Below are positions 233 through 39,401 of a DNA stretch of 64,000 nucleotides, piece after piece. The stretch spans positions 1 to 64,000 of the forward strand of contig CAUYUJ010000053.1 in the NCBI GenBank assembly GCA_963575745.1. The letters run 5' to 3'. Below the pieces are notes generated by a model. That model worked only from the letters and a program-made list of their open reading frames with translations. It was not told where the DNA came from and searched no databases. A program made the position numbers and the translations under genes. This DNA comes from Prorocentrum cordatum (Eukaryota). Position 1 is the stretch's first letter; each line of letters begins with the position of its first letter.

Positions 233-364
233 CCCCTGACCTTCCAGCAGGGCTAAGAAATAGCACCAGGACGGCAACGTCCTGATTCCTGTAGAGGTCT
301 GAGACGGTCCAGATAGATCTATAGGTCTGGAGTGCTATTTTTTAGCACTCTGGAAGGTCCGGGG
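233..364. mobile_element. MITE-like family A (about 130 bp, TIR CCCTGACCTTCCAG); second copy inverted at 9291-9423
   Basis: Terminal inverted repeats and a shared internal sequence between the two copies. Confidence 0.7.
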
Positions 365-457
365 CGCCCCTGCCCCCCCCCCCGCAGCGCGCGGTGGGGG
401 GGGGGGGGCAGGGGCGAAGGGGGGGGGGGGCGGAGCGGCGCGGCCTGGCCGGCAGAG

Positions 458-520
458 GTCTGCGACTTCGGCCTGGCGCGCGGGGACATGTGCGACGTGG
501 ACGGGGAGGAGGAGGGCCAG
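458..520 (+). CDS. MAP kinase (TEY type) exon: VCDFGLARGDMCDVDGEEEGQ (subdomain VII); upstream exons lie outside the window
   Basis: DFGLAR motif; AG|G acceptor at 456-457; GA donor after CAG at 520 (alternative in-frame GA donor after 529); phase 0 join to 4954. Confidence 0.85.
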
Positions 521-733
521 GAGCCTCAGGAGGGGAAGAGAGAGTGGCATGAGCATAAAGACTCGGAGGTCCGCGCGGATTTCTCGGATCGGCGCTGGGG
601 CCCCCCGGCGGCGCCTCCGGCGCCGCCCCTGTCGCGCTCCGCGCGCCAGGGAGGGGGGTCCAGCGCCGATCTGAGAAATCCGCGCGGACCTCCGAGTTTT
701 TATGTTTATGCCACCTTTTGTTCCCCTACTCAA

Positions 734-960
734 GCAGCGGCGAAGCGTCCTGGCTCGCCTGGAGCCCTACCAAGCCGTGTTCTACCTTCTGTGGTTTCCA
801 CGAGCTGCTCTCAGAGCACTTCTGGCGGGGCCTGTCTTGTTTTACCGCATCGGGCTTAAGTTCTAAGAGCATTGTTTTTGTGATTCGAGCATTTTTGGGT
901 TCTGAGATTATTTCGTGGTAGGAGTATAGAAAATGCCGGGACGGTCGGTCCCTGCTCATG
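734..960 (+). repeat. Dispersed about 230-bp repeat; second copy about 43558-43786
   Basis: Colinear similarity from GGCGAAGCGTCCTGGC to GGGACGGTCGGTCCCTGC. Confidence 0.7.
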
Positions 961-1849
961 GAGCAGGGCTCGCTTCCAGCCCCCCGATCCGACCCCGACC
1001 TCGGCCTCGACCTCGATGGCCTCCGATTCCGGAGCGGTTCGGCTCGCGATTCCGCTGTGGCCTTCGGCTTTCCGCGGGAGGCAGACTTTTTCGCAACGAT
1101 CCGATGCTTCCCGCGTCGGCTTCCGTTTTTTGCTGGCTTGATTCATGTCGACCGCCTATCCGACTTATCGGCTCGATTCGGGGCTCTCCCGCAGGGGTCC
1201 CGGCGGCCAGGTCTCCTTGCGGGGGCGCCCACGAGAGGGGCGGGCAGGAGTCGGGGGGGTCGATGTGATGGCCAGGACCAGCAGGTCTCCCGTATGTCTC
1301 GTGGCCCCCTCCTCTTCTTCTTTCCGCCCGACCCTCGGCCCACCCCCCCTCGCCTGGGCGCGCCCCTCGGGCCCAGCTTTGCGACCCCCCCCTCTCTTGG
1401 ACGCCCCTCCCTCTTGGACGCGCCCGGCCCCTGCGTCCTCCCCCCCCTCCTTTACGTCGGGCCTGTCCCCCTACTGGGGGATCTTCGACGAAAAATAGAA
1501 ACAATACCGCAAAAAATCCCCCGGGCCGCGCGCCTCAGTTCCGCGGTGCTTGCTCGACTTGCTCCAGTTCGTCCCTGCGCGCGAGGCGAAGCCGCGGTCG
1601 CCAAACATCGCCATGCCAATGTGCATATTAAAAGACGTTCCCCAAACAGTGGCTGCACTTCGGGATTCTATTTCTGTTCTGGGGAGCCTGTCCGTGTCTG
1701 TGGACTGGCGGTTACGTGGCCGCCGTCGCCGCCTCGTCGCCGCCTCGTCGCCGCCTCGTCGCCGCCCGTCGTCTGGGCCGTATCTTCGGTCTTGCGGCTA
1801 TGTGGCCGCCGTCGCCGCCCCGTCGCCGCCTCGTTCTCAACCTAGGCCC

Positions 1850-2385
1850 TAGATTGCGCAACGTAGACTGCACCGCGTAGGTCGCACCACAAAGAGTGCA
1901 CAACATATATTGCACCACCTAGGGTGCACTTCGTAGCTTGCAAACCATGGTCAACCCCGCGTAACTTGCACCGCGCGGATTGGACAACACAGATTGCACC
2001 ACATAGAGCGCACAATACATATTGCACTACATCGATTGCACTACATATTTTGCACCGCGTAGGGTGCACAGCATAGGCTGCACCACATATATTGCACCAC
2101 CTAGGCTCGACCACATCAGTTGCACAACATATATTGAACCGCATAGACTGAGGCACATGGATTGCGCAATATATGTTGCGCCACATCAGAGGCGCAACAT
2201 ACAATTTGCTATATACATTGCACCACGTAGATTGCAGCACATCGAGTGCACGACATACTGCACCGCATCGGTTGCACCACGTATATTACACACTTTGTAG
2301 CTTGCGCAACATGTATTGAGACGCGTAGATTGCACCACACGAGTTGCACCACATGAGTTGCAGCACGTAGAGTGCGCAACATATA
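1850..2385. repeat. Degenerate minisatellite (about 21-bp GATTGCACCACATA-type unit); related tract about 3670-3825
   Basis: Recurrent TTGCACCAC motif. Confidence 0.75.
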
Positions 2386-2619
2386 TTCTTTCTTCTGAAG
2401 AGAGATCGGTTCTACCACCCTCCCCCCCCGGGTTTAAAGACCCTCGGGAACCGATGCAAAACACGTCGGATTCTGACCCTATGTCCATCTGACCGGTGAA
2501 TTCATACTATCCCAGCCAGGCTGGTATCGCCCCACCGCCATTTTCTGCAACAAATCATATGCGCGCACACTTGCTTATCAAAAAGCGCAAAGTTTTCAAT
2601 CGCCCATTGCAAAAAAACA

Positions 2620-2995
2620 GGGACGAAGTGCAGCGCGCATGCCGAAATCCTTCAAACATTTCCGGTTTCGAAAGGATTTCAAATTCGAGTGTCCAACTAA
2701 CCATATAACACACAGGGTTTCGCAACACGGACTTTCAACAAATGTACATATGCGCGCGCGCTCTTGCGAATTCTTAAGAAAGCCATTGTCTTTTACAGAT
2801 TTCAGAAAATGCTGCCAAACGGGCTTCACGCGCGCGCACGTCGAAATAGTTCGAACGCCCTTGCGCGCGTGCAGCTGCGAGGATCGTATGCAAACAAGAA
2901 AGGGCGAAGCGCACGCAAACGCGTCGTCGCGCGCGCATGCCGAAATCCTTCAGACACTCTCCGTTTCAGAAGGATTTTAAAATCGAGTGTCCATT

Positions 2996-3038
<43 letters not shown>

Positions 3039-3192
3039 CGCACGGTTTCGCAACACAGGGTTTCAACAAAAGCGTGCGCGCGCTGTTGCAAATTCTTAAG
3101 AAAACCACAATTTTCAACATGTCCATAACACGTTTTTTAAACGGGCTTCGCGCGCGCATGTCGAAATCGTTCGAACGCCCTTGCGCGCGTGC
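2620..3192. repeat. Diverged tandem duplication, period about 300 bp
   Basis: GCCGAAATCCTTCA...TCGAGTGTCCA and GTTCGAACGCCCTTGCGCGCGTGC each occur twice about 300 bp apart. Confidence 0.7.
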
Positions 3193-3893
3193 TGGGGTGA
3201 TACGGTCCGTTTCAAATAATACCATGCGAGCCACTCTCACGCGTCTGCCGCGCGCGTATGTCGAATTCCTTGCAGAGCCTTCATCGCCGACGCGAAGACG
3301 CCGTCACCGTCGCCGGCGTGATCGGTATCAGCGCCGTCACTGGCCGTGCCGTCGTCGCTGTCAGCATCGTCACCAATGGCGCTATTACCATCATCCTCGT
3401 GTCTACGATTGTCGACGTTGCCATGATACCGCACCCGCCCAAGTCGCCGACTCGCACTCACGTGCCCGCCTGGATGTGCTGAGCGGTCAGCACCACAGCG
3501 GCCGCGGCGGTCGCGCCAAACTACCTGGCCGTTGCGCGCGCATGCGCGGGCTGGCGCGGCCGCAGAGATCCACCAGCCAGCGCCAAGCACTCATCGCAAT
3601 CGCCGCCGCATGAGGTTTGCAAACCAACTTGCGGGTGGGTGGGTGGGATGTTTGCACGAGCAATGGAGTGGACAACTCACTGCGAACAGAATTAGTTGCA
3701 TCACAGAGATTGCACTCACTGCGAACAGAATTAGTTGCATCACAGAGATTGCACCACATAGGCCGCACCACTTATATGGCTCAACCTCGATGATTGCGCC
3801 ACATAGGTTGCACAGCATCGATTGCTAAAAACGCAATGTTTGGGGTCCGCGTCGGCGAGCATGTACATACTCACGCATATATGTATGTATGTA

Positions 3894-3948
<55 letters not shown>

Positions 3949-4953
3949 GTGTGTATGTATGTATGTATGTATATATATATATATAGATATCGATGTGTGT
4001 GTGCTTGCAGGAGAGTGCGTGTGCGCGCTCTCGTGATTCTGTGCAAAGTTCCGGGAATGTATGTAGACAGGCGGGAATGGATCATGCTCGGAGGGGGACA
4101 GTGAACACATGTGGAGTGGTTGGGAGGCGGAGGAGCATACCAGAATCGTTATTCGATATTGTTCTGAAGAAAACCTTTTGGGGAAGGCGCGTGCTGACTG
4201 ACATTCGAGGCACTTGTAAAGCAGGTGTCTTGGGAGATATATGAGCCTGAACGTCCGTACCAATGATCAGTACCAGGCTATGTCTGAGCATAAATGGAGT
4301 GCCACTGGCTAGCTTCGGACAGACCAGTGGTCCTGAATGTGTGTCCACCCTGTAGTTGTTTCTTGTCTGTAGCTCAGTCTACGTGAGAGAGTAGCGTTCC
4401 GCTGGAAGGTCTGAGCTCGTACGTGACTCGATTGGGAGCAAGCGGCGAGTGATGCTCACGAAGCCAGTTACGCTTTCTAGCTATAGCAACGCTGCCTTAA
4501 TATTGTATATGCTCGCCAGGCGCAGTACTCCTCGGTATCACATGCCACTCATTGGGCGATGTCAGGTTCGCTGCGAGCATGCAGTCGCCTCTCTTCAAGA
4601 CGAAGTTGGGAGGCCGTGTGGCCCAGGCTTGACCATTTGGGCAACAATGACTTGTGCTCGAAGATCTCCTATCTTAGTGAGGACTGCCCATGCACAGCGT
4701 GTGCGGTAGGTTCGCGTCGTGTCGACTGGCGGCGACCCCCCGCCGGCGTTCAACGTTGAACGCCGCCGGCGATCCAGAGTCGGTCGATGTTGAACGATCT
4801 GACGTTTCGGACACGGCCGATCGTTCAAGGTTGGACGAGCCCCGCGGTGCCAGAAACCAACGCCGAAGTCGGCGCCACACGAACCTGCTGCAAAGAGGGC
4901 TGTCGCGTCTGCAGAGTGTCGTGGGCCTGATTTCAATCACTTGCTGGCTGCAG

Positions 4954-4991
4954 GAGTGCGGCGTGCTCACCGAGTACGTGGTCACGCGCTG
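4954..4991 (+). CDS. MAP kinase exon: ECGVLTEYVVTR(W), activation loop TEY
   Basis: TEYVVTRW MAPK signature; CAG|G acceptor, TG|GT donor; phase 2 join to 6069 rebuilds TGG. Confidence 0.92.
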
Positions 4992-6068
4992 GTGCCGAAG
5001 CTCAGAGGGGGGATCCTGGCGAATGACCCAGCACTATATTGCTGCGGCTGAGGAAAGTAGTGCTCCGCGAGAGGTTCGGAGCTCGGGCAGCGCGGTTCGG
5101 GGGCACGAGACCGTCGGACGGGCTCCCCTCGGGGCCACGCAGCGTGTGAGGGACGTGCCAAAATCAACGGGGGGACGCCATGCGGTCCCTGCCACTGGGG
5201 CCTCCTTGGGAGTTCCCTCTTGGGCCAAGACACGTGTGATTGGTGTGCCGAACTGTGAATGATGATTGTTATGATGAGGATGATCACGAGGGAGATGAGA
5301 AGGAGCAGGAGGGTGATGAGGAGGAATGAGAAGCGCGGCGCGGCGGAGTCAAACCGAGACTCAACACAGGAGGATTGGGAAACAGATTGGAGGATAGTGT
5401 GCAAAGCGGTGCTATGAATGATTTGAACGGATGTGATGCCACGTTGACGAATTGTCGGGATTCCGCGATCATTTGCGCATGGCATCTGGCAATTAATGCA
5501 CATGCGATGACGACAATGGAATAGCCCGCGCGGTTTGAGCTCGTCGTCTTTATCACGGTTGTGGTGCAGCAGTATTGTCAAGATGTCAAGATGCCATGCG
5601 ATATTATGCAGACAGGAAGTGTCGAGGAGTCGTTTTTACCCGACACGGTCGTGAGGCTCAGTCCAAGCACAGACAGGGGTGCCCATGCAGGCGGACACGA
5701 ATATACATGCTTAACATGTTTAGGCAGAGAGGCATCTCCGGATGGGCACAGAAACTCGGCGGCGAGCAGGGGGGGGGAAGTGAGAAGGAGGAGGCCTGGT
5801 CAGAAGGCGGCGGGGCTTCTCAGAAGCACTCGCGCCTTCCGAGAAGTTTTCCGTGTCTCCGGGGCAGCTTCTTGTGCCGGCCCAAAGGCCTTCTGAGCCT
5901 TCTGAGAAGGCCCGCCCTTTCTGACTCCCCCCCCCGGGCTCGCCGCCGAGAGAGGGACAGGGCATGCGAGGCTGGAGGCACGACGAGGTTTGGATGCTGA
6001 CGGGAGGTTTGATGCGTGAGTCCACTGTGACCGCCACCTCACAGATCGCCGCCCCCCGCCGCCCCGAG

Positions 6069-28428: not shown

Positions 28429-29381
28429 CGTCCGCTTGACTGACCCAGAGATCGCGGCCAAGGCAGGCTGGGGGCTCGGCCTCGGCCTGATGGGGTGAGG
28501 AGCAGACAGCAGCGCAGCGCAGATTTTTCTCAACGCAGTGGCATTCGCAGCCGCGGCAGCAGCACGTGTGCAGGCGGCACCGCAGATTTCTTTCAATGCA
28601 ATGGCAGTCGCAGTCATTGCAGCAGCGCGTGCAGGAGCAGTATCCTTTGTGGCAGTGTCATCCAGCCTACTTGCTGCCAGTGAGCAGCCATCCATAAGAC
28701 GCTAGGCCACCAATCTTCTTCTTTGTTTGCCATGCAGAGATTTTTGTGGTTGCGAAAGAGGGTGGTGGGGGGGGGGAGAGTGAAGGGGAAGGGGGGAGGG
28801 GGATGCGTGGGGAGGTCCTCAGAGTCGGCGGCCCGCCAGCAGGGCAGCCGCCGACTCCTCTGGTCTCATGAGTAGGGTTCGCAGGAGCCCCTGCAGCGGG
28901 GCAGCCCCTCGGCGCGGCCCGCAACATAGCTGCAGCAGCGCGAGGAGCCCGCCCCAGGCAGTCTCTCGGGCCGGCGAGCGTTCGGCTCTGGGGGCAGCTT
29001 CCATATCAATCCCCGGGTGCCCGCCCTCAGCTTTGTCCAGTCTGAAGCACAATGGACCCCCCACGGCCTTTACCTTTACCTTAACCTCTTCCTCCTCCTT
29101 CTTTTCCTCGGCGTCCTCCCCCTCCCGCTTGCGCGATCCGCAGCCGAACACCCCCGTCGTCGACGCGGTGCTCAGCGCCTTTCCGACGGCCCGAGCGAGC
29201 GAAATTGCTCGAGCCCAAATGGCTGAGGCAGTACAGGGAAAAGGGGACAGGGATGGCGAGGAGGAGGAGGAGGAGGAGGAGGAGGTGGACGAGGAGGAAA
29301 GGAGGAGGAGGAGGAGGTGGACGAGGAGGAGGAGGAAGAGGAGGAGGAGGAGGATCATGCTGATGATGACGATGATGATGC

Positions 29382-29414
<33 letters not shown>

Positions 29415-29534
29415 GGAGGAGGAGGAGGAGGAGGAGGAGGAGGAGGAGGAGGAGGATGGGGGAGGAAAGGGGGAGAGGGAGGAGAAGGAGGAGGAGGAGG
29501 AGGAGGAGAGGAGGAGGTGGAGTTGGAGGAGGAG

Positions 29535-29566
<32 letters not shown>

Positions 29567-29992
29567 GGGGGAGGAGGAGGGGGAGGAGGAGGAGGAGGAG
29601 GAGGAGGAAAAGGGGTAATTATGATGATGAGGAGGAGGACAAATATGACGAACAATAATATGAATAATGAGAATGGTCAGGTGAATCAGACGACTAAGCA
29701 TCATAATATTAATCTTCATAATAGGACCAACGAGAATAATAATAACACGGCTAAGTTTTTTTTTGTCAGCGATCCCCTGGGGGCCTGAACGGTTTTGAAA
29801 CAGCACGTCGGCCACGATGGCCGAAGACCAGCTCACCCGCTGAGCACGTCTGACGTACAGCCCAGCAGATGAGGGACAGCGGGCGGGACAGGGGACAGAT
29901 GAGGCCCCAGATTTAGCCACCCGCCATCCACAAAATCTGGTCACGGTGCGTCGCCCAAAGGCGCGGCAACGGGCCGTGCCACCGCCGACGCT

Positions 29993-32900
29993 TCACGGGC
30001 CTGAATGCGTGCCAGGAGCGCCGCCATACCTGCCGTTTCGATCAGCCCTGACGGCGAGAGCGGCAGGCTGACATCTGGCGGCGGTGGCCTCTGAGACTCG
30101 TAGCAAAAGAAAGCCACGCCTCGCCTCGAGGATCACCGTGCGATTGTCACGATAGTGAGGATAGAGGCCAGCAGAGATCCTCCTCAGCACGGTAGTGCCA
30201 CCCGCCAGTCGGCGCTGAAGGCACTCCTTGCCGAGCATATGACAGCGCGCAGAGGAGTACGCTCCGCACATGGAGCAAAAGAAAAGGGTGAGCCTCCGCT
30301 CACCTTTGCTTACAATGCAATGCGCCAACGAGTGCCCCAAGGACCGATCCAGGACACCACGCCACAGCTTGCTGGGTCCTTTGCATCCCAACATGGGGCG
30401 CGCATCCCGATCAGTGGACATACAAAGGCAATGCAAACATCTGGCGCAGCCCTGACTTATTTCCTGCCAGGAATGCCAACCTCCCGATTTAAAAAACTTA
30501 GCCCTCGGTCCCAAGGGCCGACGCTCAAACTTTTCGGGAGGAAAGGTGGCAAGCACGGTGCCCGCCACCCTAGCAGCGAAAGCCAACAAATCACACTTCC
30601 TGTCCACCTCCGTACGTTCGTGCACACTGGGTTGGGGATGGAGGAGGGGAGTTTGCTTGGCAAGGGCGTCGGCTTTCAAGTTGCCTATACCAATCCGTTT
30701 CTCGTGCGCTGGCAGAGCGTCCAGAACAGCGCGCGCACGGTGCGCAGGTGTGTGGTGCACCGACGGGATGGGGAACTTCTCATGGAGCAGGGCACCTTTC
30801 CGAAGACCAGCATAACGATGTTTATGAAAAACCTGGTGCTCCCTCGTCGCCACACAGATGCGCACCACATTCATGCAATCGGTGTGGCGGTCTCCGCCGT
30901 TGCTCTGAAACATCGGGAGGAGGGCCATGCAAAGGTGCTCCGCAGCTTGGGAGGTCTGGGGGAGGACCGACAGAACAGTATCTTTGGCGTACGCAATAAT
31001 AGTGTCGCCCTCCCCCAAGAAAACCCAGGAGTAAGCCGCTCTGGACAACTCCCTAACGGTATGCCGATAGGCCGAGCCGTCCATGACGACATCGCAACCC
31101 GAGAGGTCCACAGAGCCCCAATCAATAATATCCCCTTCAGGAGAGTACAGGATGGGTTGAGTGGCCGAGGACGGAGGAGGGTAGGGTGCTCTTTTTGGAC
31201 TCATCAAAGAACAAACGGTCCTGACTTTCAAGAGCTTCGTCCAGCCATTCAACAGGAGAGTCATCAGTAACACTTTTACGGGCGGCGACGGTGTCAGGGT
31301 GAAGGCACTGCCAAACGCGGTGCCGCACTCTGTCGGGCATCCCGCACTTCGGGCAAAGTCCGTCGCACGAGTATCCAGCGGCCTGAGCCCTCGCTCTGGT
31401 CCAAATCCTTTTGTAAAACACACTCAGCGCCACATACTTCTGCTGAGGGTTGAATTTCCTTCCCTTGGGGCCCAGCAAGGTTTTCAGGGGATCAGAACCG
31501 TCGGCTCCAGGGGCGTCCTGACATAAAACCCGTTCATGTTTTCGTTGGACCGCCAACTGCAACATGTGCGCTAACATAGCGGGCGAGGTGTATCCCAAGT
31601 GCACCTCTCGACCGTAGTCGTCCTCAAACGTAAGGGGGGTCACCGACTTCCACCCGATCCTAGCCAGCGACAGGTGCATGCGCTGCAGAGGTCCTCGTGA
31701 CGAGCGCCACGTGACCTTGTCATCAAAGGGGACAGAACGCCACAAATGAGCAATCTCCTTGATATTATACCTAGGGACTGACGGGGTGGTGAGAGCCAGC
31801 CACGCGATCGACGCCCACTGCAGGGCTGGCGCCACAGACGGCCTCCACATCGGGTCTCCAAGGATCACCAGACGCGCCTGGAGGGAGCACCCTCGGTGCC
31901 TAGGGGGGTGCGACGACAACAGCACACGTTGAGCCACCTGGAGCTCGCCCTGACTCATCCCCACAACCGACGAGCCGAAACTGGCCGCAGGCAACACTCC
32001 GCACGTATAGCTCTTTCCCATGCGAGATTTTTTGCGGGGAAGGGCCGAGCGATATCGCATCAAAACCTTATGCCTCTTCTTCATGTGGGAAAACCTCTGT
32101 TTTCTTTTCCACAGACCATGTTTAGCACCTCGGGTCTGACCTGGTGCGAAATCCGTGCCGAGGGAGACCGCGCTGTTCGTGACCTTGCCCGCCAGCTGCC
32201 CGAGGTGCCTAGCAATCTTCTGGGCGAGGGTGCGGCTGCCGGCAAAGGTGCTGACCTTGTCGGGCTGAATGCCGACGCGCAGCTCATCCCTAAACAGGAC
32301 GTACAGGCAAGCAGCCGCCTGAGTGATAGTGGCCAGGACCTCTTGCTCAGAGCCCGACGCTGTGACGCTATCATCATCGACGTGCGACGACTAATCGACG
32401 CTGGGGTTGTCTTCAACAAACTTGTCAAAGGCTTCGATGCTGTAAACTCGAACCATGATATCATTGAAGATATCTCCCGCGGGAAGACCAGACCTGGCGA
32501 AATAAGGCTGGGCCCCGTAGTGGGCCCCCCAAACGAAGCAAACGGGGGCCCCTCCAATAGTTAAACGTCGTTTTGACAATGACCTCGTTAATACCGTAAC
32601 GTAACGCTCTATCCTTGAGAAGGGCTAAATCAAATGACTCGTAGTACTTCGTCCCATCCCATATTATGCCCCCCGTTTCCTGAGACTCGAAGTGGGCCAT
32701 CTCGGCCTGGACGGCCTGGTGCCGCGCGGCACTCTCAGCACTGCGGCCAGGGCCAAACGCCCAGTAGCTGCGAGGGTAGTTCGCGTTGAAATCCACAATC
32801 AGAGGTCTCCGTAAACGTTCCCAGACCCGGACGGGGCCGGCGCGCAGCAAGATGGGTCGAAGGCCTTCCTGGGGTTTTTCCAAAAGAGGGAAAAGCAGCC

Positions 32901-34722
32901 AGAACAGTTGTTTGGGAAAGAGGCCCAGGGACTCAATCGCTTGGACTAACGCCCCAAACGTGTCAAGGGCATCGTCCGAAACCAAAACCAACGCGAGCTG
33001 TCTCGGGTGCAGTCCATCGAGGGACTGCGAAGTCAGGTGCGAAAAACTGCTGGACGCGCTTCTAATCTCGGCCGCCGTCGGCCTAGGGAGGTGCTCCCGA
33101 TCAGGAACACACACCTCGGGTGGTATGTGCGACGCGTGCCAAAACTCGGACAGGGATTTGCCTTCAGCCTCAAGCAGCTCTTGAGGGGAGTTAGAAAAAC
33201 AACCATGATGATTTTGCACGACGGTCGGGGTCCACCTCTGCTTGAGTTTCGTGAGCCTGTGCATGGCCCTCGCTCCCCCAGAAAGAGCTTTCTCCTGCCA
33301 TTGATCCCAACTATCCTGCTGAACCTTCGCGACGGCCTTGCGCGCCTCGTCCAGGCCGTCGCCCCAAGACGACAGAAACTCCTGACACTGCTCAATCCAG
33401 CTATCGAGGCCATCATCGAGCGTAAAAGAACGAGCCAAAGTGCGCGCCTGAGCGAGGGTCGCGTCGAGTCTAACATTCTGCCCCTCACCGGGGCATGGTA
33501 ACATAAGAAGCTGTTGGATCTGGTGGCTCGCATCCTCAGACAAACGCTGGACCTGGGCTTGGTCCGTGGGATCGGTTTCCTGGGCCGCCCTTCGAAATCG
33601 AGCTGGCACCCCAATGGTTTCAGACAAATGTTGGGCCAGCCAGATCCATCCGACGTGCTGCTCACGGAGGCTACAGGCCTTGGGTTTAGCAAACATCGGG
33701 GCCCACCGAGCTCTCAAGAGGTCCCCTTTGTGTCCTTTGCTTCTAACCTCCACTCCCGTGAAAGCCTCGAGCTCAAGCTCGAGCGTGTTGGAAAAATACT
33801 TCCAGGCAACAGTGAGAAGTTCCCACGCCTCGCCGATGGGGCGAGTGAGAGCCGCAGCAGCAGCGTCCTCAGCAATGGTACGGCTGAGGGTCCAGTCCTG
33901 GGGTCTGGGGGTCGGCCCGAAAGGCAGCTCCGTCGGGAGTCTTTGATGCGACCGATACATCAGCTGATGGCACCGAACGGCATCGGAACGCAACGCGAGG
34001 CACACGGGCCTGTGAGGGCGATGAGTCCAGGACATGTCAGCCTCAACCTTATCACAGGCGCGTGCGAAGCACGTGCTCGCTAAAAAGTAGTCGACAGTGG
34101 TGAGGCTTCCTGGGGACAAGCAGGTCTTCTGCGTTGGCACAAACAGGGCCCCTTCAACTCGACGGGGAAGTCCCGTGGAGTCAACCAGATGTGCGTCGAG
34201 GTTCCAGTCTCCCCCCACAACGTACATATGCTTCCCCGTGAGCCTCTCTCCTAATTGCCTCAGAAGGGAGAGATTGAACGCGCGCAACCCAGTCCCCGAC
34301 TTAAAGTAGCACGAAAACACGCGCAGGGGCGGCCATCCAGGCAAGTCGACAATCACATGGATGATACGCCCCTCGGCAACGATCCCGGGAGCATCCGACG
34401 GCCATCGCAGGCCAATGTGCGTGCGGACGAAAACTCCGGCCCCCGCTCGAGGTCTCCCAGATTCACCAGCAGGGGAGGGGGAACGCAGCATTTTCCATCC
34501 CAAGCTGGCCGCTGAGGCAGCTCTTTCACCCTCACGGTCCTCGAGAGTCCCGATCTCCTGCGCCAGCAGGACGAGCGCCGATGTCGAGCAGAGCCTCTCA
34601 CGCAAAGTCGGCCAGCAATTGCCATTGTAGGTCTCGAAGCTTTCGCCCAAGCCAGCAAGCGAGGACGAGTCAAGCGAGTCGGGGGGAGGCGGAGGTGGAG
34701 CAGGAACTCCGTATTCAGACAT
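29993..34722 (-). pseudogene. LINE ORF2 (APE endonuclease, reverse transcriptase, CCHC finger, RNase H, Cys-rich tail), disrupted
   Basis: APE: TYNG, LLAQE, GGDWN, VDYFL, HRPV. RT: LLEKPQEGLRPI, WDGTKYYESFD, GLPAGD, SHVDD. CPKCGMPDRVRHRVWQC. RNase H: MDGS, QTSQAAE, HTDC, PAH, GNLKADALAK. Frameshifts near 32525-32530 (homopolymer) and about 31200; in-frame TAG at 32391-32393. Confidence 0.9.
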
Positions 34723-34753
34723 GGGCAAGCCGCAACACCGTGGGAGCCAAGGG

Positions 34754-35833
34754 CTACCCCACGCGCGGCTTCTTGCACAGCCTGCTACCGAACTTCTCAA
34801 TGCACTCACGCTTGTCAATCCGTATGGCTGCATTGAAAATCTCCTCGACCATGTCTTCGTCAAGATCCTCATCATGCTCGAAACCTGGTGTCGGCTGTTG
34901 TTGTGCCTCGGCCGCACCATCTCCGCTGGCGGCCGATGCATCACTAGGAGCCCCATGACCAGGCACACCAGCATCTTCGGATTTGAAAGGCGATGATGCC
35001 GTTGCCGTAGGTGATGCCTTCGCCTGGGAGGCCGCCAGCAGCTCCGCGAACTTCTTGAACGTGTCGGACTGGAGCATTTCCTTGATCTGCGCTTGCTCAC
35101 TCGACGCAGCCAGCACCTCAGGATCGACCTCCAAATCCACGACGGGCATGCCAGACAACGTACGAATGAGGTCCCGATTGAGGAGCTCGATCTCGCGGTC
35201 CGTAGCAGCAACTTGTGCCCGCATGCCATCGATCTTTTCTTGAGCACTCGCGATGAAGCGTAGCTGCTCCTCGATCTGGTGCTCAAGTCTCTGCTCTTTG
35301 CCTTTAGCACTTGCCAAGCGATGACCCACATTAGTATGCTGAGTGAGCTGGGGCTTGGTCTGATGCAATTCGCGACGTACGGCCTCCAGCTTGATCTCGA
35401 GCTCAGCCTTGGCACCTTTGCCCGGCTCACCCAGCTTCTCACAGTGCGACATGGCCACCTCGAGCTGCTTGATGTTGTCGCGCAGCTCCTGCTCCTTGGA
35501 ATCCTTGGGCGGTTCCTTAGCAGGGTGGCTGGCCACAGAGACAGGGGATAGGTTACCTCCTCCTGCCAACTTGTCAAACCTGCGCTGGAGCTCGTCCAGC
35601 CTCTTCTGTAGTTTGTCGTCACGACCACCCCTACCGCCACGAGGTAGACCAGCCCGCTGACGATGCTGCTGGCCGCGCGCATGAAGCCCGGCTGCACGGC
35701 GCACCTCGAGCGGTGCCTTCTTCCCGCATCTGCAAATGATCCTGGACGCCCAGTTGGTGTTGCGACCACATGAGCACGCCCAGGTGGGCATCCTTGGCCC
35801 AGGGAGGACCTCAGCGCCATCTCCATCGGTCAT
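34754..35833 (-). CDS. LINE ORF1 (359 aa from the first ATG): N-terminal RanBP2-like zinc finger, RGG box, coiled coil
   Basis: WACSCGRNTNWASRIICRC; PRGGRGGR; heptad-rich LQKRLDELQRR...IEEQLRFIASAQEKID; open frame ending 32 nt before the ORF2 ATG. Confidence 0.8.
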   Translation of the reverse strand: MTDGDGAEVLPGPRMPTWACSCGRNTNWASRIICRCGKKAPLEVRRAAGLHARGQQHRQRAGLPRGGRGGRDDKLQKRLDELQRRFDKLAGGGNLSPVSVASHPAKEPPKDSKEQELRDNIKQLEVAMSHCEKLGEPGKGAKAELEIKLEAVRRELHQTKPQLTQHTNVGHRLASAKGKEQRLEHQIEEQLRFIASAQEKIDGMRAQVAATDREIELLNRDLIRTLSGMPVVDLEVDPEVLAASSEQAQIKEMLQSDTFKKFAELLAASQAKASPTATASSPFKSEDAGVPGHGAPSDASAASGDGAAEAQQQPTPGFEHDEDLDEDMVEEIFNAAIRIDKRECIEKFGSRLCKKPRVG

Positions 35834-35953
35834 GAGAGCCTGTAGGCTTGGATGAATGTGTGGGTTGAGATCCCACGAACTGAAGGTTGGAACGGGGCTC
35901 GCAGCAGCGACTGCCGCTCTGAAGACTGCTGCTGCAAGCTCAGGAATCAACAC

Positions 35954-36025
35954 CTGAGCCAGAACGGCTAGGACTTGAGCCAAAATGGCTTGAGCCAAAA
36001 TGGGTTGAGCCAAAATGGCTACGGA
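35954..36025 (-). other. Dinoflagellate spliced leader plus three tandem SL relics at the LINE 5' end
   Basis: Minus strand reads TCCGTAGCCATTTTGGCTCAAC (21/22 to DCCGTAGCCATTTTGGCTCAAG), CCATTTTGGCTCAAG, CCATTTTGGCTCAAG, TCCTAGCCGTTCTGGCTCAG. Confidence 0.95.
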
Positions 36026-36700
36026 ACACGGCTAAGAATACTAATAAGATCAAGGAGGATAACCATACTATTACACATGGGAAGAATACGATTAATACTG
36101 ACATAGGCAATACTGAAAAGACAAAACATCATATCGCTATACATAGTAATATGAACACTAGTAGGAAAACAAAGACAGCTAGTAACACGAGTAAGCCGAA
36201 TACTACATATAAGACTAATGAGAATACTACCGATCCGAATAACAATACTAATGGTACGTATATCAATAAGAACAATATCGCTAGTACTACGAATAATATT
36301 TTATTCGTACCACGAAATGCAAGGATCAGAAGACGAAGCGTACTAATACGATGACAAAGAAACCACGACGACTAATCACACTACTGATAACAACAGGAAC
36401 TCTACTTAAAATAAGACTAATACTAATACTACTAATAATACGGGTAAGAAAAATAAGAGGAATCCAACTAACAATAACAACCGTAATACTAATAATAACC
36501 ATGCCAATGATAGGACACATACAACTAGAATACTAAAACGCATACTTAGACGAATCATACTACTATTCATACGAATAATAAGACGAAAGAGGAGGAGGAG
36601 GAGGAGGAGGAGGAAGAGGAGGAGGAGGAGGAGGAGGAGGAGGAGGAGGAGGGAGGAGGGGGAGGAGGAGGAGGAGGAGGAGGAGGAGGAGGAGGAGGAG

Positions 36701-36731
<31 letters not shown>

Positions 36732-36997
36732 GAGGAGGAGGAGGAGCAGCAGGAGGAGGAGGAGGAAGAGGAGGAAGAGGAGGAGGAGGAGGAGGACGAG
36801 GAGGAGAGGAGGAGGGGAGGGGGAGGGGGAGGAGGAGGAGGAGGAGGAGGAGGAGGAGGAGAGGAGGAGGAGGAGGAGGAGGAGGAGGAGGAGGAGAGGA
36901 AGAGGAGGACGAGGAAAAGGAGGAGGAGGAGGAGGACGAGGAGGAGGAGGAGGAACCAGGGAAGCAAAACAGACCCCCCCCCCCCCCCTCCGCGGAG

Positions 36998-37070
36998 GTC
37001 CAGGCAGTGCCTCGATTTCCTGAAACAGCTCCTGCGCTGGGACCCCTCGAGGCGACCAACGGCCGCGGAG
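36998..37070 (+). CDS. MAP kinase exon: (A)SRQCLDFLKQLLRWDPSRRPTAAE, subdomain XI
   Basis: LD.L..LL..DP..R.TA motif; AG|GTCC acceptor mirrors donor GC|GTCC; GAG|GC donor. Confidence 0.88.
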
Positions 37071-37254
37071 GCGCGCCGCCGCCCAGGGGTGGGAACCGCG
37101 GCTCCCGCGTCCTTCACTCGCCGACTCTCGGGGGTGGTGTCCTTTCCGCCTCCTCCGCGGGGGTGGTGTCCTTTTCCGCCTACTCTAGTGGGAAATTGGT
37201 GGCATACGATGACACCAGGACTACAGGACGTTCAATCCAGACTGTACCAGAGTA

Positions 37255-37357
37255 CCAGTGCTACTGCTGCGGCTACCGCTGCTACTATTAGTGCTGATGC
37301 AGTGACCGCAGTACTGAAGTAGTACTGCGGCCCCTACTACTACTACTACTACTACTG

Positions 37358-37392
<35 letters not shown>

Positions 37393-37444
37393 GCTACTGC
37401 TACTACTACTACTACTACTACTACTACTCCTGCTGCTGCTGCTG

Positions 37445-37485
<41 letters not shown>

Positions 37486-37666
37486 GCTACTACTACTACT
37501 GCTGCTGCTACTACTACTACTACTGCGACCACGGCTACTACTACTACTACTACTACTACTGCTACTGCTACCGCTATTATTAGTACTACTACTGCCTACT
37601 ACTACTACTACTACGACTACTACTACTACTCCTCCTACTACGACTACTACTACGACTACTACTACG

Positions 37667-37707
<41 letters not shown>

Positions 37708-38366
37708 CACTACTGCTACTACTACTGCTACTACTACTGATACTACTGCTGCTCTACTACTATCACTACTACTGCTGCTACTACTACAACTACTACTACT
37801 ACTACTAATATTTTTGTAGACTACTACTAGTACTAGTACTAGTACTTCTACTGCTGCTGCTACAACTACTGCTACTACTACTCTCATTCGCATTCTTATA
37901 ACCACTACTACCACTACTACTATTGCTACTGCCACCCCTGCTGCTACAACTACTACTACCACTACCCCAATTACTACTATTATTACTACTACTACTACTG
38001 CCACTGCTACTACTACCACTACTACTAGTAGTCGTAGTAGTAGTATTGGTACTACTACTACTACTACTACTACTATTACTACTACTACTACTACACATAC
38101 TATTACGATTACTATTACTATTACTACTACGATTACTATTACTACTACTACTACTACTACTATTACTACTACTACTACAACTACTATCACTACTACTACA
38201 ACTACTACCGCGACTAATTCTGCTGTAATTCTTCTTCTACTACTCCTACTACCACTACTACTACGACTATGGTGGCTACTAGTATTACGACGACGACTAC
38301 TACTACTGCTACTACGACTATTATTTATACTACTACTACTAATACTACTACTCCCATTACTGCTAT

Positions 38367-38404
<38 letters not shown>

Positions 38405-38411
38405 ATAATAT

Positions 38412-38442
<31 letters not shown>

Positions 38443-38666
38443 TGTGCTACCACCGTTACTACTACCACTACTCCTACTAGTACCACCACTACTACAACAA
38501 CATCAACTACTACTACTATTCATAGTACCACTGCTGCTACGATTTCTAGTTCTACTAATACTACTAGTTGTACCACTGCTGCTGCTGCTACTACTCCTAC
38601 TACTACTTCTACTGCCATTACTACTAATATTACTACTATTACTACTACCACCAGTACTATTACTAT

Positions 38667-38699
<33 letters not shown>

Positions 38700-38700
38700 G

Positions 38701-38737
<37 letters not shown>

Positions 38738-38745
38738 TTACTACG

Positions 38746-38779
<34 letters not shown>

Positions 38780-38784
38780 GACGG

Positions 38785-38874
<90 letters not shown>

Positions 38875-38990
38875 GTACTACTACTGCGACTACTACTACT
38901 TCTACGACGACTACTACTACTACTACTACTACTACTATTTCTGCTACTACGACTACGACTACTGATGCTGACACTCGGACTGCTACTACA
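37255..38990. repeat. Degenerate (CTA)n microsatellite
   Basis: Direct inspection. Confidence 0.95.
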
Positions 38991-39401
38991 GCGTTCCTGG
39001 CACGCGCTGCCGTTCGACACACCCCGCACGCGTCCGTTGGCGCTGCTTATTGACACAGTGCGAACGGCGGGCTGGGGGGGGGCCTGAGGAATCGTAGGCA
39101 CCTGCGGCCGGCGTGGCTCGCGACATCGAAGGAAAAACGACTGCACTAACATTAGCGTTTGGAGCTCCGCGCGGATTCCTTGGATCTGCACCGAGCCCCC
39201 TTTGGCGGTGCCTCCGGCGCCGCCCCCGGCGCGCTCCGTGCGCCAGGGCGGAGGGGGGCCAGCGCAGATGAAAGAAATCCGCGCAGAGCTCCGAAAGTTC
39301 ATGTACATGAAATGTTTGGTTCTTCTACGACAGATGCGGCGGGTGACCTTGAGACCTGTGCATCGCATCTTTTCACACTGGGCGTGTTCACCTGGTTTCA
39401 G

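What the first reader, a model, noticed from the sequence alone, without database searches (positions are those of the whole stretch)
35954..36036. LINE capped by a spliced leader plus stacked SL relics: a trans-splicing-dependent retrotransposon with a built-in cycle counter
Seen: the element's 5' end abuts the TSD and reads TCCGTAGCCATTTTGGCTCAAC (36025-36004, 21/22 to DinoSL), then CCATTTTGGCTCAAG twice (36003-35989, 35988-35974), then a decayed near-full SL TCCTAGCCGTTCTGGCTCAG (35973-35954). The two 15-mers are exactly the part of the SL downstream of its internal AG. Established: dinoflagellate mRNAs receive the 22-nt SL by trans-splicing, and tandem relic SLs of this form are known from recycled host retrogenes. 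Inference: here the carrier is an autonomous-type LINE. Each inserted copy would bring an SL whose AG is the acceptor for the next trans-splicing event, regenerating a capped, complete 5' end without necessarily needing an internal promoter and adding 15 nt per generation. This copy would record up to four SL additions, with the innermost the most decayed.
Basis: partly seen in the sequence, partly recalled or inferred. Interest (0 to 1): 0.92.

Follow-up and report, generated by a model that had tools for sequence, protein, structure and literature searches.

The report
LINE retrotransposon capped by spliced leaders
A 6.3-kb jumping gene (LINE) in a dinoflagellate genome begins exactly with the host's 22-base spliced leader followed by three older leader remnants, which shows that it was copied from trans-spliced messenger RNA more than once and hints that such elements may borrow the host's RNA processing instead of carrying their own promoter.

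Summary
On the minus strand an 11-bp target-site duplication (36036-36026) abuts a full DinoSL (36025-36004, 21/22). Two exact 15-mers and a decayed near-full SL follow. The same 11-mer recurs after an A9 tail at 29755-29745, so the SL array lies inside the inserted DNA.

The insert is an ORF1 + ORF2 (APE-type endonuclease, reverse transcriptase) non-LTR retrotransposon. It belongs to a large multi-copy family. This copy carries two frameshifts.

The pattern is not unique. Of 19 metagenome loci with tandem SL relics and at least 2 kb downstream, 5 carry EN/RT domains on the same strand. A sixth is a near-identical copy with one SL unit fewer.

- **Shown:** SL-capped LINE mRNA was retrotransposed, and integrated SLs were re-spliced at their internal AG.
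- **Inferred only:** the element needs no promoter, and units count cycles one for one. Tandem-SL donor genes are a published rival.
- **Missing:** no RNA data and no host genome could be used.

Six full-text searches found no explicit description of SL-capped LINEs. I rate it a new variant of a known kind, interest about 0.6.

The parts
36026..36036 (-). 5' copy of the target-site duplication, CTTAGCCGTGT
   Evidence: Identical 11-mer at 29745-29755 directly after the poly(A).
36004..36025 (-). Outermost unit: full-length spliced leader TCCGTAGCCATTTTGGCTCAAC (21/22 to DinoSL)
   Evidence: It starts at the first base after the TSD.
35989..36003 (-). Relic SL, exact 15-mer CCATTTTGGCTCAAG (SL minus its first 7 bases)
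   Evidence: 0 mismatches.
35974..35988 (-). Relic SL, second exact 15-mer
   Evidence: 0 mismatches.
35954..35973 (-). Innermost unit: decayed near-full SL, TCCTAGCCGTTCTGGCTCAG
   Evidence: Two substitutions and two 1-nt deletions against the 22-mer (hand alignment).
35834..35953 (-). Rest of the 5' UTR
   Evidence: Lies between the SL array and the ORF1 ATG.
34754..35833 (-). ORF1, 359 codons plus stop: N-terminal Cys-rich CxC...CxC motif, then a Lys/Glu-rich stretch that I read as coiled coil
   Evidence: Three relatives found: 56% identity over the full length, 89% over half the length (a source names that one Prorocentrum cordatum), and 27%. No Pfam family above cutoff.
32461..34722 (-). 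ORF2 part a, from ATG 34722: APE-type endonuclease and the N-terminal part of the RT
   Evidence: Exo_endo_phos E 0.003, below cutoff on its own. Aligns to EN and RT of P0006. 2374 library hits. Relatives carry Exo_endo_phos and RVT_1 above cutoff. Frame map.
31209..32546 (-). ORF2 part b, in another frame: C-terminal part of the RT with HVDD (YVDD in P0006)
   Evidence: Frame change near 32500-32530. Other copies differ by one base at 32525 (table 4).
29993..31183 (-). ORF2 part c, in a third frame: C-terminal region shared with the full-length relatives
   Evidence: P0009, P0010, P0011, P0017 and P0019 align here. No Pfam family.
29765..29992 (-). 3' UTR
29756..29764 (-). Poly(A) tail, A9
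29745..29755 (-). 3' copy of the target-site duplication, CTTAGCCGTGT

Best explanation
Window 29756-36025 (minus strand, 6.27 kb) is one insertion of a non-LTR (LINE) retrotransposon of a dinoflagellate. It was made by target-primed reverse transcription of a full-length, polyadenylated element mRNA whose 5' end carried the host's trans-spliced leader.

The copied SL contains an internal AG (TCCGTAG|CC...). A transcript that reads into a new copy can therefore be trans-spliced at that AG. The result is a fresh SL in front of a 15-nt relic. Repeating this loop built the array: SL, 15-mer, 15-mer, old decayed SL.

Shown by sequence:
1. The SL sits at the exact 5' end, inside the TSDs.
2. A poly(A) tail and an 11-bp TSD are present.
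3. The relics have exactly the length that re-splicing at the SL's AG predicts.
4. The insert encodes ORF1 and EN-RT.

Inferred:
- New copies are transcribed by read-through from host transcription, or from the T-rich SL relic acting as a promoter element, as Song et al. proposed for retrogenes.
- The element therefore needs no promoter of its own.
- Each unit stands for one cycle.

This particular copy is no longer coding-competent because ORF2 has two frameshifts.
For: - **Anatomy:** searches give TSD, SL array, ORFs, A9 and TSD. One search shows the SL matches exceed chance: 4 found, 0.11 expected, 0 of 100 shuffles reached 4.
- **LINE identity of ORF2:**
  - The open frame is collinear with P0006, which carries RVT_1 and Exo_endo_phos.
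  - An exhaustive search gave 2374 hits at E<=1e-3 and 172 at E<=1e-30.
  - Of 8 relatives scanned, 5 have Exo_endo_phos and 4 have RVT_1 above cutoff. Three have no family.
  - Six full-length relatives align along the element in three frames.
- **Multi-copy family of mixed age:** 572 contigs of run X1 lie on it. By identity they split 96 at 99%+, 195 at 95-99%, 151 at 90-95% and 130 below 90%.
- **Generality:** 117 metagenome loci hold two tandem 15-mers, and 19 of them have at least 2 kb downstream. Same-strand domains are:
  - L035: RVT_1 59.5 bits, Exo_endo_phos_2 27.8 bits.
  - L043: Exo_endo_phos 28.1 bits.
  - L055: Exo_endo_phos 27.7 bits, RVT_1 47.6 bits.
  - L069: Exo_endo_phos 25.3 bits, RVT_1 53.7 bits.
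  - L049: RVT_1 24.4 bits, below cutoff.
  - L077: matches L049 over about 250 nt with one mismatch, but has one SL unit fewer.
- **Junctions in other loci:** in L043 and L055 a full SL starts right at a simple-repeat flank. L035 and L049 end in A16 and A10.
Against: - No RNA run holds the element, so SL-capped element transcripts were not seen.
- The window's genome is not held. SL counts of sister copies in the same genome could not be collected.
- ORF2 has two frame changes. This copy may have been dead on arrival, that is, mobilised in trans.
- The innermost unit is a near-full SL, not a 15-mer. The simple loop does not predict that. It needs an acceptor AG immediately upstream of an earlier integrated SL.
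- In L049 versus L077 the extra unit is internal, which fits slippage or independent additions better than simple nesting.
- LINE loci do not clearly carry more units than other loci: 3 of 6 against 20 of 111 have 3 or more. The numbers are small and I ran no test.
- A preprint on Symbiodinium found no functional overlap between DinoSL-relict genes and RT genes, and called the two processes independent (10.1101/783902, passages).
Confidence: 0.85

Rival explanations
1. The array is not a cycle counter. Several units were added in one trans-splicing event from a 'tandem-SL' donor gene whose exon already holds partial SLs. The copy would then record perhaps two events: an old decayed SL, and a recent block of three.
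For: PMC6616646 (passages) reports SL genes with 2 or 3 SL units in Fugacium. It states this alternative reading of tandem SLs in transcripts. In the window the three outer units are almost perfect (1 change in 52 nt) and the inner one is decayed (4 changes in 22), which fits two events.
Against: - Counts of DinoSL relicts per gene in two Symbiodinium genomes fall steeply: 7,452, 1,009, 91, 7... (PMC5585692 table). That is what repeated independent events would give.
- L049 and L077 differ by one unit although otherwise near-identical.
- Relic spacing differs within L049 (15 and 16 nt), which suggests separate events.
Confidence: 0.2
2. The SL units were added during reverse transcription. The RT switched template from the capped 5' end of the LINE RNA to other SL-bearing RNAs, as happens for U6-L1 chimeras in mammals (recalled). 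They would not then come from repeated trans-splicing.
For: Template switching at 5' ends is a known property of LINE RTs (recalled, not tested here). It could place a full SL inside the array.
Against: Two relics end and begin exactly at the SL's AG|CC and ...AAG boundaries. That is the splice signature. A jump would be expected to carry on into the body or intron of the other RNA, and no such sequence lies between the units.
Confidence: 0.05
3. The SL array belongs to the target, for example a relic in front of a host retrogene or a degenerate SL RNA gene. A 5'-truncated LINE merely landed beside it, or the LINE targets SL genes as SLACS/CRE/NeSL elements do.
For: The TSD and the innermost unit share the 7-mer TAGCCGT. 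Another SL-like relic lies about 530 nt beyond the 3' end.
Against: - The array lies between the two TSD copies, and the rebuilt empty site has no SL.
- The element has a complete ORF1 and 5' UTR, so it is not 5'-truncated.
- The endonuclease is APE-type, not the restriction-like type of SL-gene-specific LINEs.
- CTTAG(C/T)CGT recurs in the AT-rich flank, so the shared 7-mer is probably part of the target's own degenerate repeat.
Confidence: 0.03
4. Assembly artefact: a chimeric join of an SL-rich read with a LINE copy.
For: SL-bearing sequence is extremely abundant. Depth is 2693 in the SL bin against 13-88 elsewhere in X1. No listed contig bridges the junction.
Against: A chimera would not produce matching 11-bp TSDs 6.3 kb apart with a poly(A) at the right place. 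The same architecture occurs in independent metagenome contigs L043, L055 and L049.
Confidence: 0.03

Closest known systems
Dinoflagellate retrogenes with relic DinoSL ('recycled processed cDNAs'). Slamovits & Keeling 2008 is known to me only through citations. I read passages of Jaeckisch 2011 (PMC3229502), Song 2017 (PMC5585692), Stephens 2020 (PMC7245778) and PMC12014239.
   Same: DNA-encoded SL at the 5' end. Truncated relics CCATTTTGGCTCAAG in tandem, with inner units more decayed. Read as repeated retroposition of trans-spliced mRNA.
   Different: There the cargo is a host gene and the RT source is unknown. PMC6050394 favours Ty1/copia; Song 2017 presumes LINEs. Here the cargo is the RT-encoding LINE itself, with TSD and poly(A), so the tag marks the element's own replication cycles. 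Song 2017 noted only that the GO term 'RNA-dependent DNA replication' is enriched among relict-bearing genes.
Trypanosomatid L1Tc/ingi LINEs with the Pr77 internal promoter (PMC1874656 and PMC8190864, abstracts seen in the listing)
   Same: LINEs living in a host where mRNAs are made by polycistronic transcription and SL trans-splicing.
   Different: By those abstracts Pr77 drives abundant unspliced transcripts, so the element bypasses the SL. The element here carries the SL and relics, so its mRNA passed through trans-splicing.
SL-gene-specific LINEs: SLACS, CZAR, CRE1/2, NeSL-1 (recalled, no paper read)
   Same: A LINE physically joined to SL sequence.
   Different: Those insert at a fixed site inside SL RNA genes and use a restriction-like endonuclease. 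Here the target is AT-rich low-complexity DNA, the 3' flank has no SL, and the EN is APE-type. L049 may have a restriction-like C-terminus (motif recalled, not tested), but it too carries 15-mer relics.
Tandem-SL and SL-like genes of Fugacium kawagutii (PMC6616646, passages)
   Same: Tandem full and partial SLs encoded in DNA.
   Different: Those are short loci of 103-292 bp, read as SL RNA genes or pseudogenes. Here the array is the 5' end of a 6.3-kb TSD-flanked protein-coding retroelement.

Membership tests
Non-LTR (LINE) retrotransposon, APE type | Reverse transcriptase domain | tested here: met
   The window's ORF2 pieces gave no RVT_1 hit of their own. They align to the RT of P0006, including HVDD against YVDD. 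Relatives at E 1e-99 to 1e-109 carry RVT_1 above cutoff. The RT is split by a frameshift in this copy.
Non-LTR (LINE) retrotransposon, APE type | Apurinic-like endonuclease N-terminal to the RT | tested here: met
   Exo_endo_phos at 17.8 bits is below the 24.5 cutoff on its own. The region aligns to EN of P0006 at 28% over 251 aa. 5 of 8 relatives are above cutoff.
Non-LTR (LINE) retrotransposon, APE type | Poly(A) or A-rich 3' end and target-site duplication, no LTRs | tested here: met
   A9 plus an 11/11 TSD. One search listed no long terminal direct repeats for the element, apart from the flank's low complexity.
Non-LTR (LINE) retrotransposon, APE type | Multi-copy, with copies of different ages | tested here: met
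   572 contigs at 85-100% identity in X1. Relatives also occur in three metagenome runs.
Non-LTR (LINE) retrotransposon, APE type | Intact ORFs (an autonomous copy) | tested here: not met
   ORF1 is open. ORF2 needs two frame changes. The family is autonomous-type, but this copy is not.
Dinoflagellate SL-relic retrocopy | DNA-encoded DinoSL at the 5' end, followed by relics truncated at the SL's internal AG | tested here: met
SL-gene-specific LINE (SLACS/CRE/NeSL kind) | Insertion at a fixed site within an SL RNA gene, with SL gene sequence on both sides | tested here: not met
   The 3' flank and TSD are AT-rich non-SL sequence. No SL RNA or other Rfam family was found in the window. I did not check whether Rfam holds a DinoSL model.
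LINE with an internal promoter (L1 5' UTR, Pr77) | Transcription start at the element's first base, driven from inside the element | not testable with these tools
   No RNA holder was listed.

The most novel reading that the evidence does not exclude
Dinoflagellate LINEs of several clades may be promoter-less parasites of the host's trans-splicing system. Under this reading, every full-length insertion brings its own acceptor (the AG inside the copied SL) and perhaps a T-rich promoter element. Any read-through transcript would then be turned into a capped, complete, translatable element mRNA. The SL array would be a heritable tally of replication cycles that lets element genealogies be read directly. 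The same machinery, acting in trans, would be the long-sought source of the thousands of SL-tagged host retrogenes.
Probability: 0.35. Interest if true: 0.85.

Novelty: new variant of a known kind. Interest (0 to 1): 0.6.

Why it matters
Two open questions in dinoflagellate genomics become testable.

1. **Which reverse transcriptase makes the very many SL-tagged retrogenes?** The papers I read leave this open or favour LTR elements (PMC6050394, PMC5585692). An EN-RT LINE whose own copies show SL, poly(A) and TSD demonstrates LINE-type integration of SL-capped, polyadenylated mRNA. That makes LINEs concrete candidates.

2. **How does a LINE stay transcribed when almost no promoters are known and transcription runs through long one-directional gene arrays?** The relic SL offers a portable splice acceptor, which may replace the internal promoter that LINEs elsewhere need.

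The SL tally may also give a rare internal record of the number of retrotransposition cycles in a lineage.

Tried and rejected
- **Own genome:** not held, so sister copies could not be collected.
- **RNA evidence:** no RNA holder listed.
- **Contigs of four DNA runs:**
  - They are short. The SL bin is swamped by SL-bearing sequence from everywhere, and the loose-end consensuses agree only 0.36-0.6.
  - Neither the junction nor the SL counts of other copies could be read.
  - Bins without cover in X2-X4 are not used.
- **ORF1 as a probe in metagenome contigs:** 107 pattern matches, none confirmed.
- **Tandem 30-mer in viral contigs:** 0 matches.
- **Earlier scan notes:** nothing.
- **Orientation of neighbouring host genes:** Pfam on 56 window ORFs of 220 aa or more gave no family above cutoff, only low-complexity sub-threshold hits. 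Co-orientation with host transcription could not be tested.
- **5' UTR homology between the window and L043:** beyond the SL units the alignment is weak, so I make no claim of a shared ancestral SL.
- **TSDs for L035 and L049:** none convincing.
- **Unit counts, LINE against other loci:** no clear difference.
- **Census coverage:** of the 53 ORFs listed, 32 went to Pfam and 5. The 16 left out were other frames, some overlapping the scanned ORFs, at 9 loci (L003, L036, L043, L049, L055, L056, L064, L070, L077). L008 and L029 had no same-strand ORF of 150 aa or more.
- **Slamovits & Keeling 2008:** not held.

Full report
**1. The observation**

Read on the minus strand, the sequence is:
- CTTAGCCGTGT, 36036-36026
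- TCCGTAGCCATTTTGGCTCAAC, 36025-36004
- CCATTTTGGCTCAAG, 36003-35989
- CCATTTTGGCTCAAG, 35988-35974
- TCCTAGCCGTTCTGGCTCAG, 35973-35954

The 5' UTR follows, then an ATG at 35833.

The first unit is 21/22 to the dinoflagellate spliced leader DCCGTAGCCATTTTGGCTCAAG, as printed in PMC7245778. The two 15-mers are the SL without its first seven bases, that is, the part after the internal AG. The last unit is a near-full SL with two substitutions and two single-base deletions (my hand alignment).

The 15-mer with up to two mismatches occurs 4 times in the window against 0.11 expected. None of 100 shuffles reached 4. A scan with the 21-mer found only these units and one further decayed SL-like site at 29208-29228.

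**2. Limits of the insert**

At the other end the minus strand reads ...GCTGAC, A9 (29764-29756), CTTAGCCGTGT (29755-29745), TATTATT....

- The 11-mer is identical to the one in front of the SL.
- Both flanks are the same kind of AT-rich, degenerate low-complexity DNA, bordered by (GAG)n on either side.
- The insert is therefore 29756-36025, 6.27 kb. The SL array lies inside the duplication, and the rebuilt empty site holds no SL.

**3. What the insert encodes**

*ORF1.* It runs 35833-34754 (359 codons). It has an N-terminal Cys-rich motif and a Lys/Glu-rich stretch that I read as coiled coil. It has three relatives in the protein collection, and a source names one of them Prorocentrum cordatum.

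*ORF2.* It starts at ATG 34722, 31 nt after the ORF1 stop.
- On its own it gives only a sub-threshold Exo_endo_phos hit and no RVT_1.
- It is collinear with P0006, which carries Exo_endo_phos and RVT_1. The endonuclease, the N-terminal RT and the RT core (HVDD against YVDD) all align.
- An exhaustive profile-free search found 2374 proteins at E<=1e-3 and 172 at E<=1e-30.
- Of 8 relatives scanned, 5 carry Exo_endo_phos and 4 carry RVT_1 above Pfam's cutoffs. Three carry nothing.
- Six full-length relatives of 1329-1942 aa align along the element in three successive frames. The frame changes lie near 32500-32530 and 31185-31210.

So the family is an autonomous-type, APE-class non-LTR retrotransposon, and this copy is broken twice. 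I did not assign a LINE clade.

*Other copies.* Contigs of a DNA run lie on the element 572 times, at 85-100% identity. Marine metagenome runs hold relatives. About half of the depth at 32525 lacks one base there. That variant coincides with the first frame change, so it is not shared by all copies.

**4. Is it a one-off?**

No. I scanned metagenome contigs for two tandem 15-mers. Nineteen of the loci have at least 2 kb downstream of the array.

| Locus | Same-strand domains downstream |
|---|---|
| L035 | RVT_1 59.5 bits, Exo_endo_phos_2 27.8 bits |
| L043 | Exo_endo_phos 28.1 bits |
| L055 | Exo_endo_phos 27.7 bits, RVT_1 47.6 bits |
| L069 | Exo_endo_phos 25.3 bits, RVT_1 53.7 bits, after a long ORF1 |
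| L049 | 1730-aa ORF with RVT_1 at 24.4 bits, below cutoff |

- L077 is the same element as L049 over about 250 nt, with one mismatch.
- L003 has RNase H/RVT_3 with DnaJ.
- L068 has an ORF1-like zinc motif.
- L044 is an ordinary host-type gene of the DHH family.
- The others gave no family.
- L035 and L055 are not detectably related to the window's family, so several LINE lineages show the pattern.
- In L043 and L055 a complete SL begins right at a simple-repeat flank.
- L035 and L049 end in A16 and A10.
- L049 has five units and L077 four, so unit number varies between near-identical copies. The extra unit is internal, not outermost.

**5. Mechanism**

Shown by sequence:
- An element mRNA carrying the SL at its 5' end and a poly(A) at its 3' end was reverse-transcribed and integrated with an 11-bp duplication.
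- Earlier in the lineage, integrated SLs were used at least twice as trans-splice acceptors at their internal AG, which gives the two exact 15-mers.

Inferred:
- New copies are transcribed from outside or from the SL relic's T-rich core. Song et al. proposed the retained TTTT/TTTG motif as a promoter element of retrogenes (PMC5585692, abstract and passages).
- The element needs no promoter of its own.
- Units equal cycles.

Points that do not fit the simple loop:
- The innermost unit is full-length, which needs an AG directly upstream of an earlier copy. The same layout, 15-mers followed by a full SL, occurs in 3 of the 117 loci: L022, L060 and L096.
- The outer three units are far fresher than the inner one.
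- Tandem-SL donor genes are described in Fugacium and could add several units at once (PMC6616646).

**6. What is known**

- Relic SLs in host retrogenes and their reading as repeated recycling are well established (PMC3229502, PMC5585692, PMC7245778, PMC12014239; passages read).
- The RT source is treated as unknown. LINEs are presumed in PMC5585692, and Ty1/copia is favoured in PMC6050394.
- Song et al. noted enrichment of 'RNA-dependent DNA replication' among relict-bearing genes.
- A Symbiodinium preprint found no functional overlap between relict-bearing genes and RT genes, and called the two processes independent.
- Six full-text searches and the passages read found no description of LINEs whose copies begin with SL arrays.
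- Supplementary tables of those papers were not opened and may list such genes.
- In trypanosomatids, the other great SL system, L1Tc/ingi use the internal Pr77 promoter and give unspliced transcripts (abstracts). That is the opposite solution.

**7. Verdict**

This is a LINE retrotransposed from SL-capped mRNA, with relics of earlier rounds. The 'trans-splicing-dependent' and 'cycle counter' parts remain plausible inferences with a published rival.

It is a new variant of a known kind, and it recurs across dinoflagellate LINE lineages. It gives a concrete handle on who makes dinoflagellate retrogenes. Interest is about 0.6.

Noticed in passing
window 29208-29228 (-): A further decayed SL-like site, CCTCAGCCATTTGGGCTCGAG, with 4 mismatches to the 21-mer. 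My rough estimate is about 0.015 such sites expected by chance in the window. It lies about 530 nt beyond the LINE's 3' end, on the same strand, just past the (CTC)n tract. It may mark a relict-bearing host retrocopy co-oriented with the LINE.
   Followed up: partly
window 36037-38999 and 29230-29744: The insertion site is an AT-rich island inside long trinucleotide-type low complexity: (GAG)n at 36580-36940 and 29230-29620, and (ACT/GCT)n at 37250-39000. No Pfam family reached its cutoff in any of 56 long ORFs scanned across the window.
   Followed up: partly
L049 (oriented 259-5448) and L077: A 1730-aa single ORF behind a five-unit SL array. It has a weak RVT_1 hit and a C-terminal Cys/His cluster followed by a PD...D-like stretch, which recalls the restriction-like endonuclease of R2/CRE-type LINEs (motif recalled, not tested). 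It is inserted in a roughly 17-nt satellite.
   Followed up: partly
L069 7261-10866: The ORF1 of this SL-capped LINE is 1202 aa and gives a weak OTU-like cysteine protease hit (18.5 bits, below cutoff).
   Followed up: no
L022, L060, L096, L043 and window 35954-35973: A full-length, partly decayed SL sits directly behind truncated 15-mer relics. The simple 'splice at the internal AG' model does not predict this order.
   Followed up: partly
L005 2-106: A contig that starts with seven tandem 15-mer relics, the longest array among the 117 loci.
   Followed up: no
L003 4857-6821: An ORF combining a DnaJ domain with RNase H/RVT_3, downstream of a tandem relic array on the same strand.
   Followed up: no
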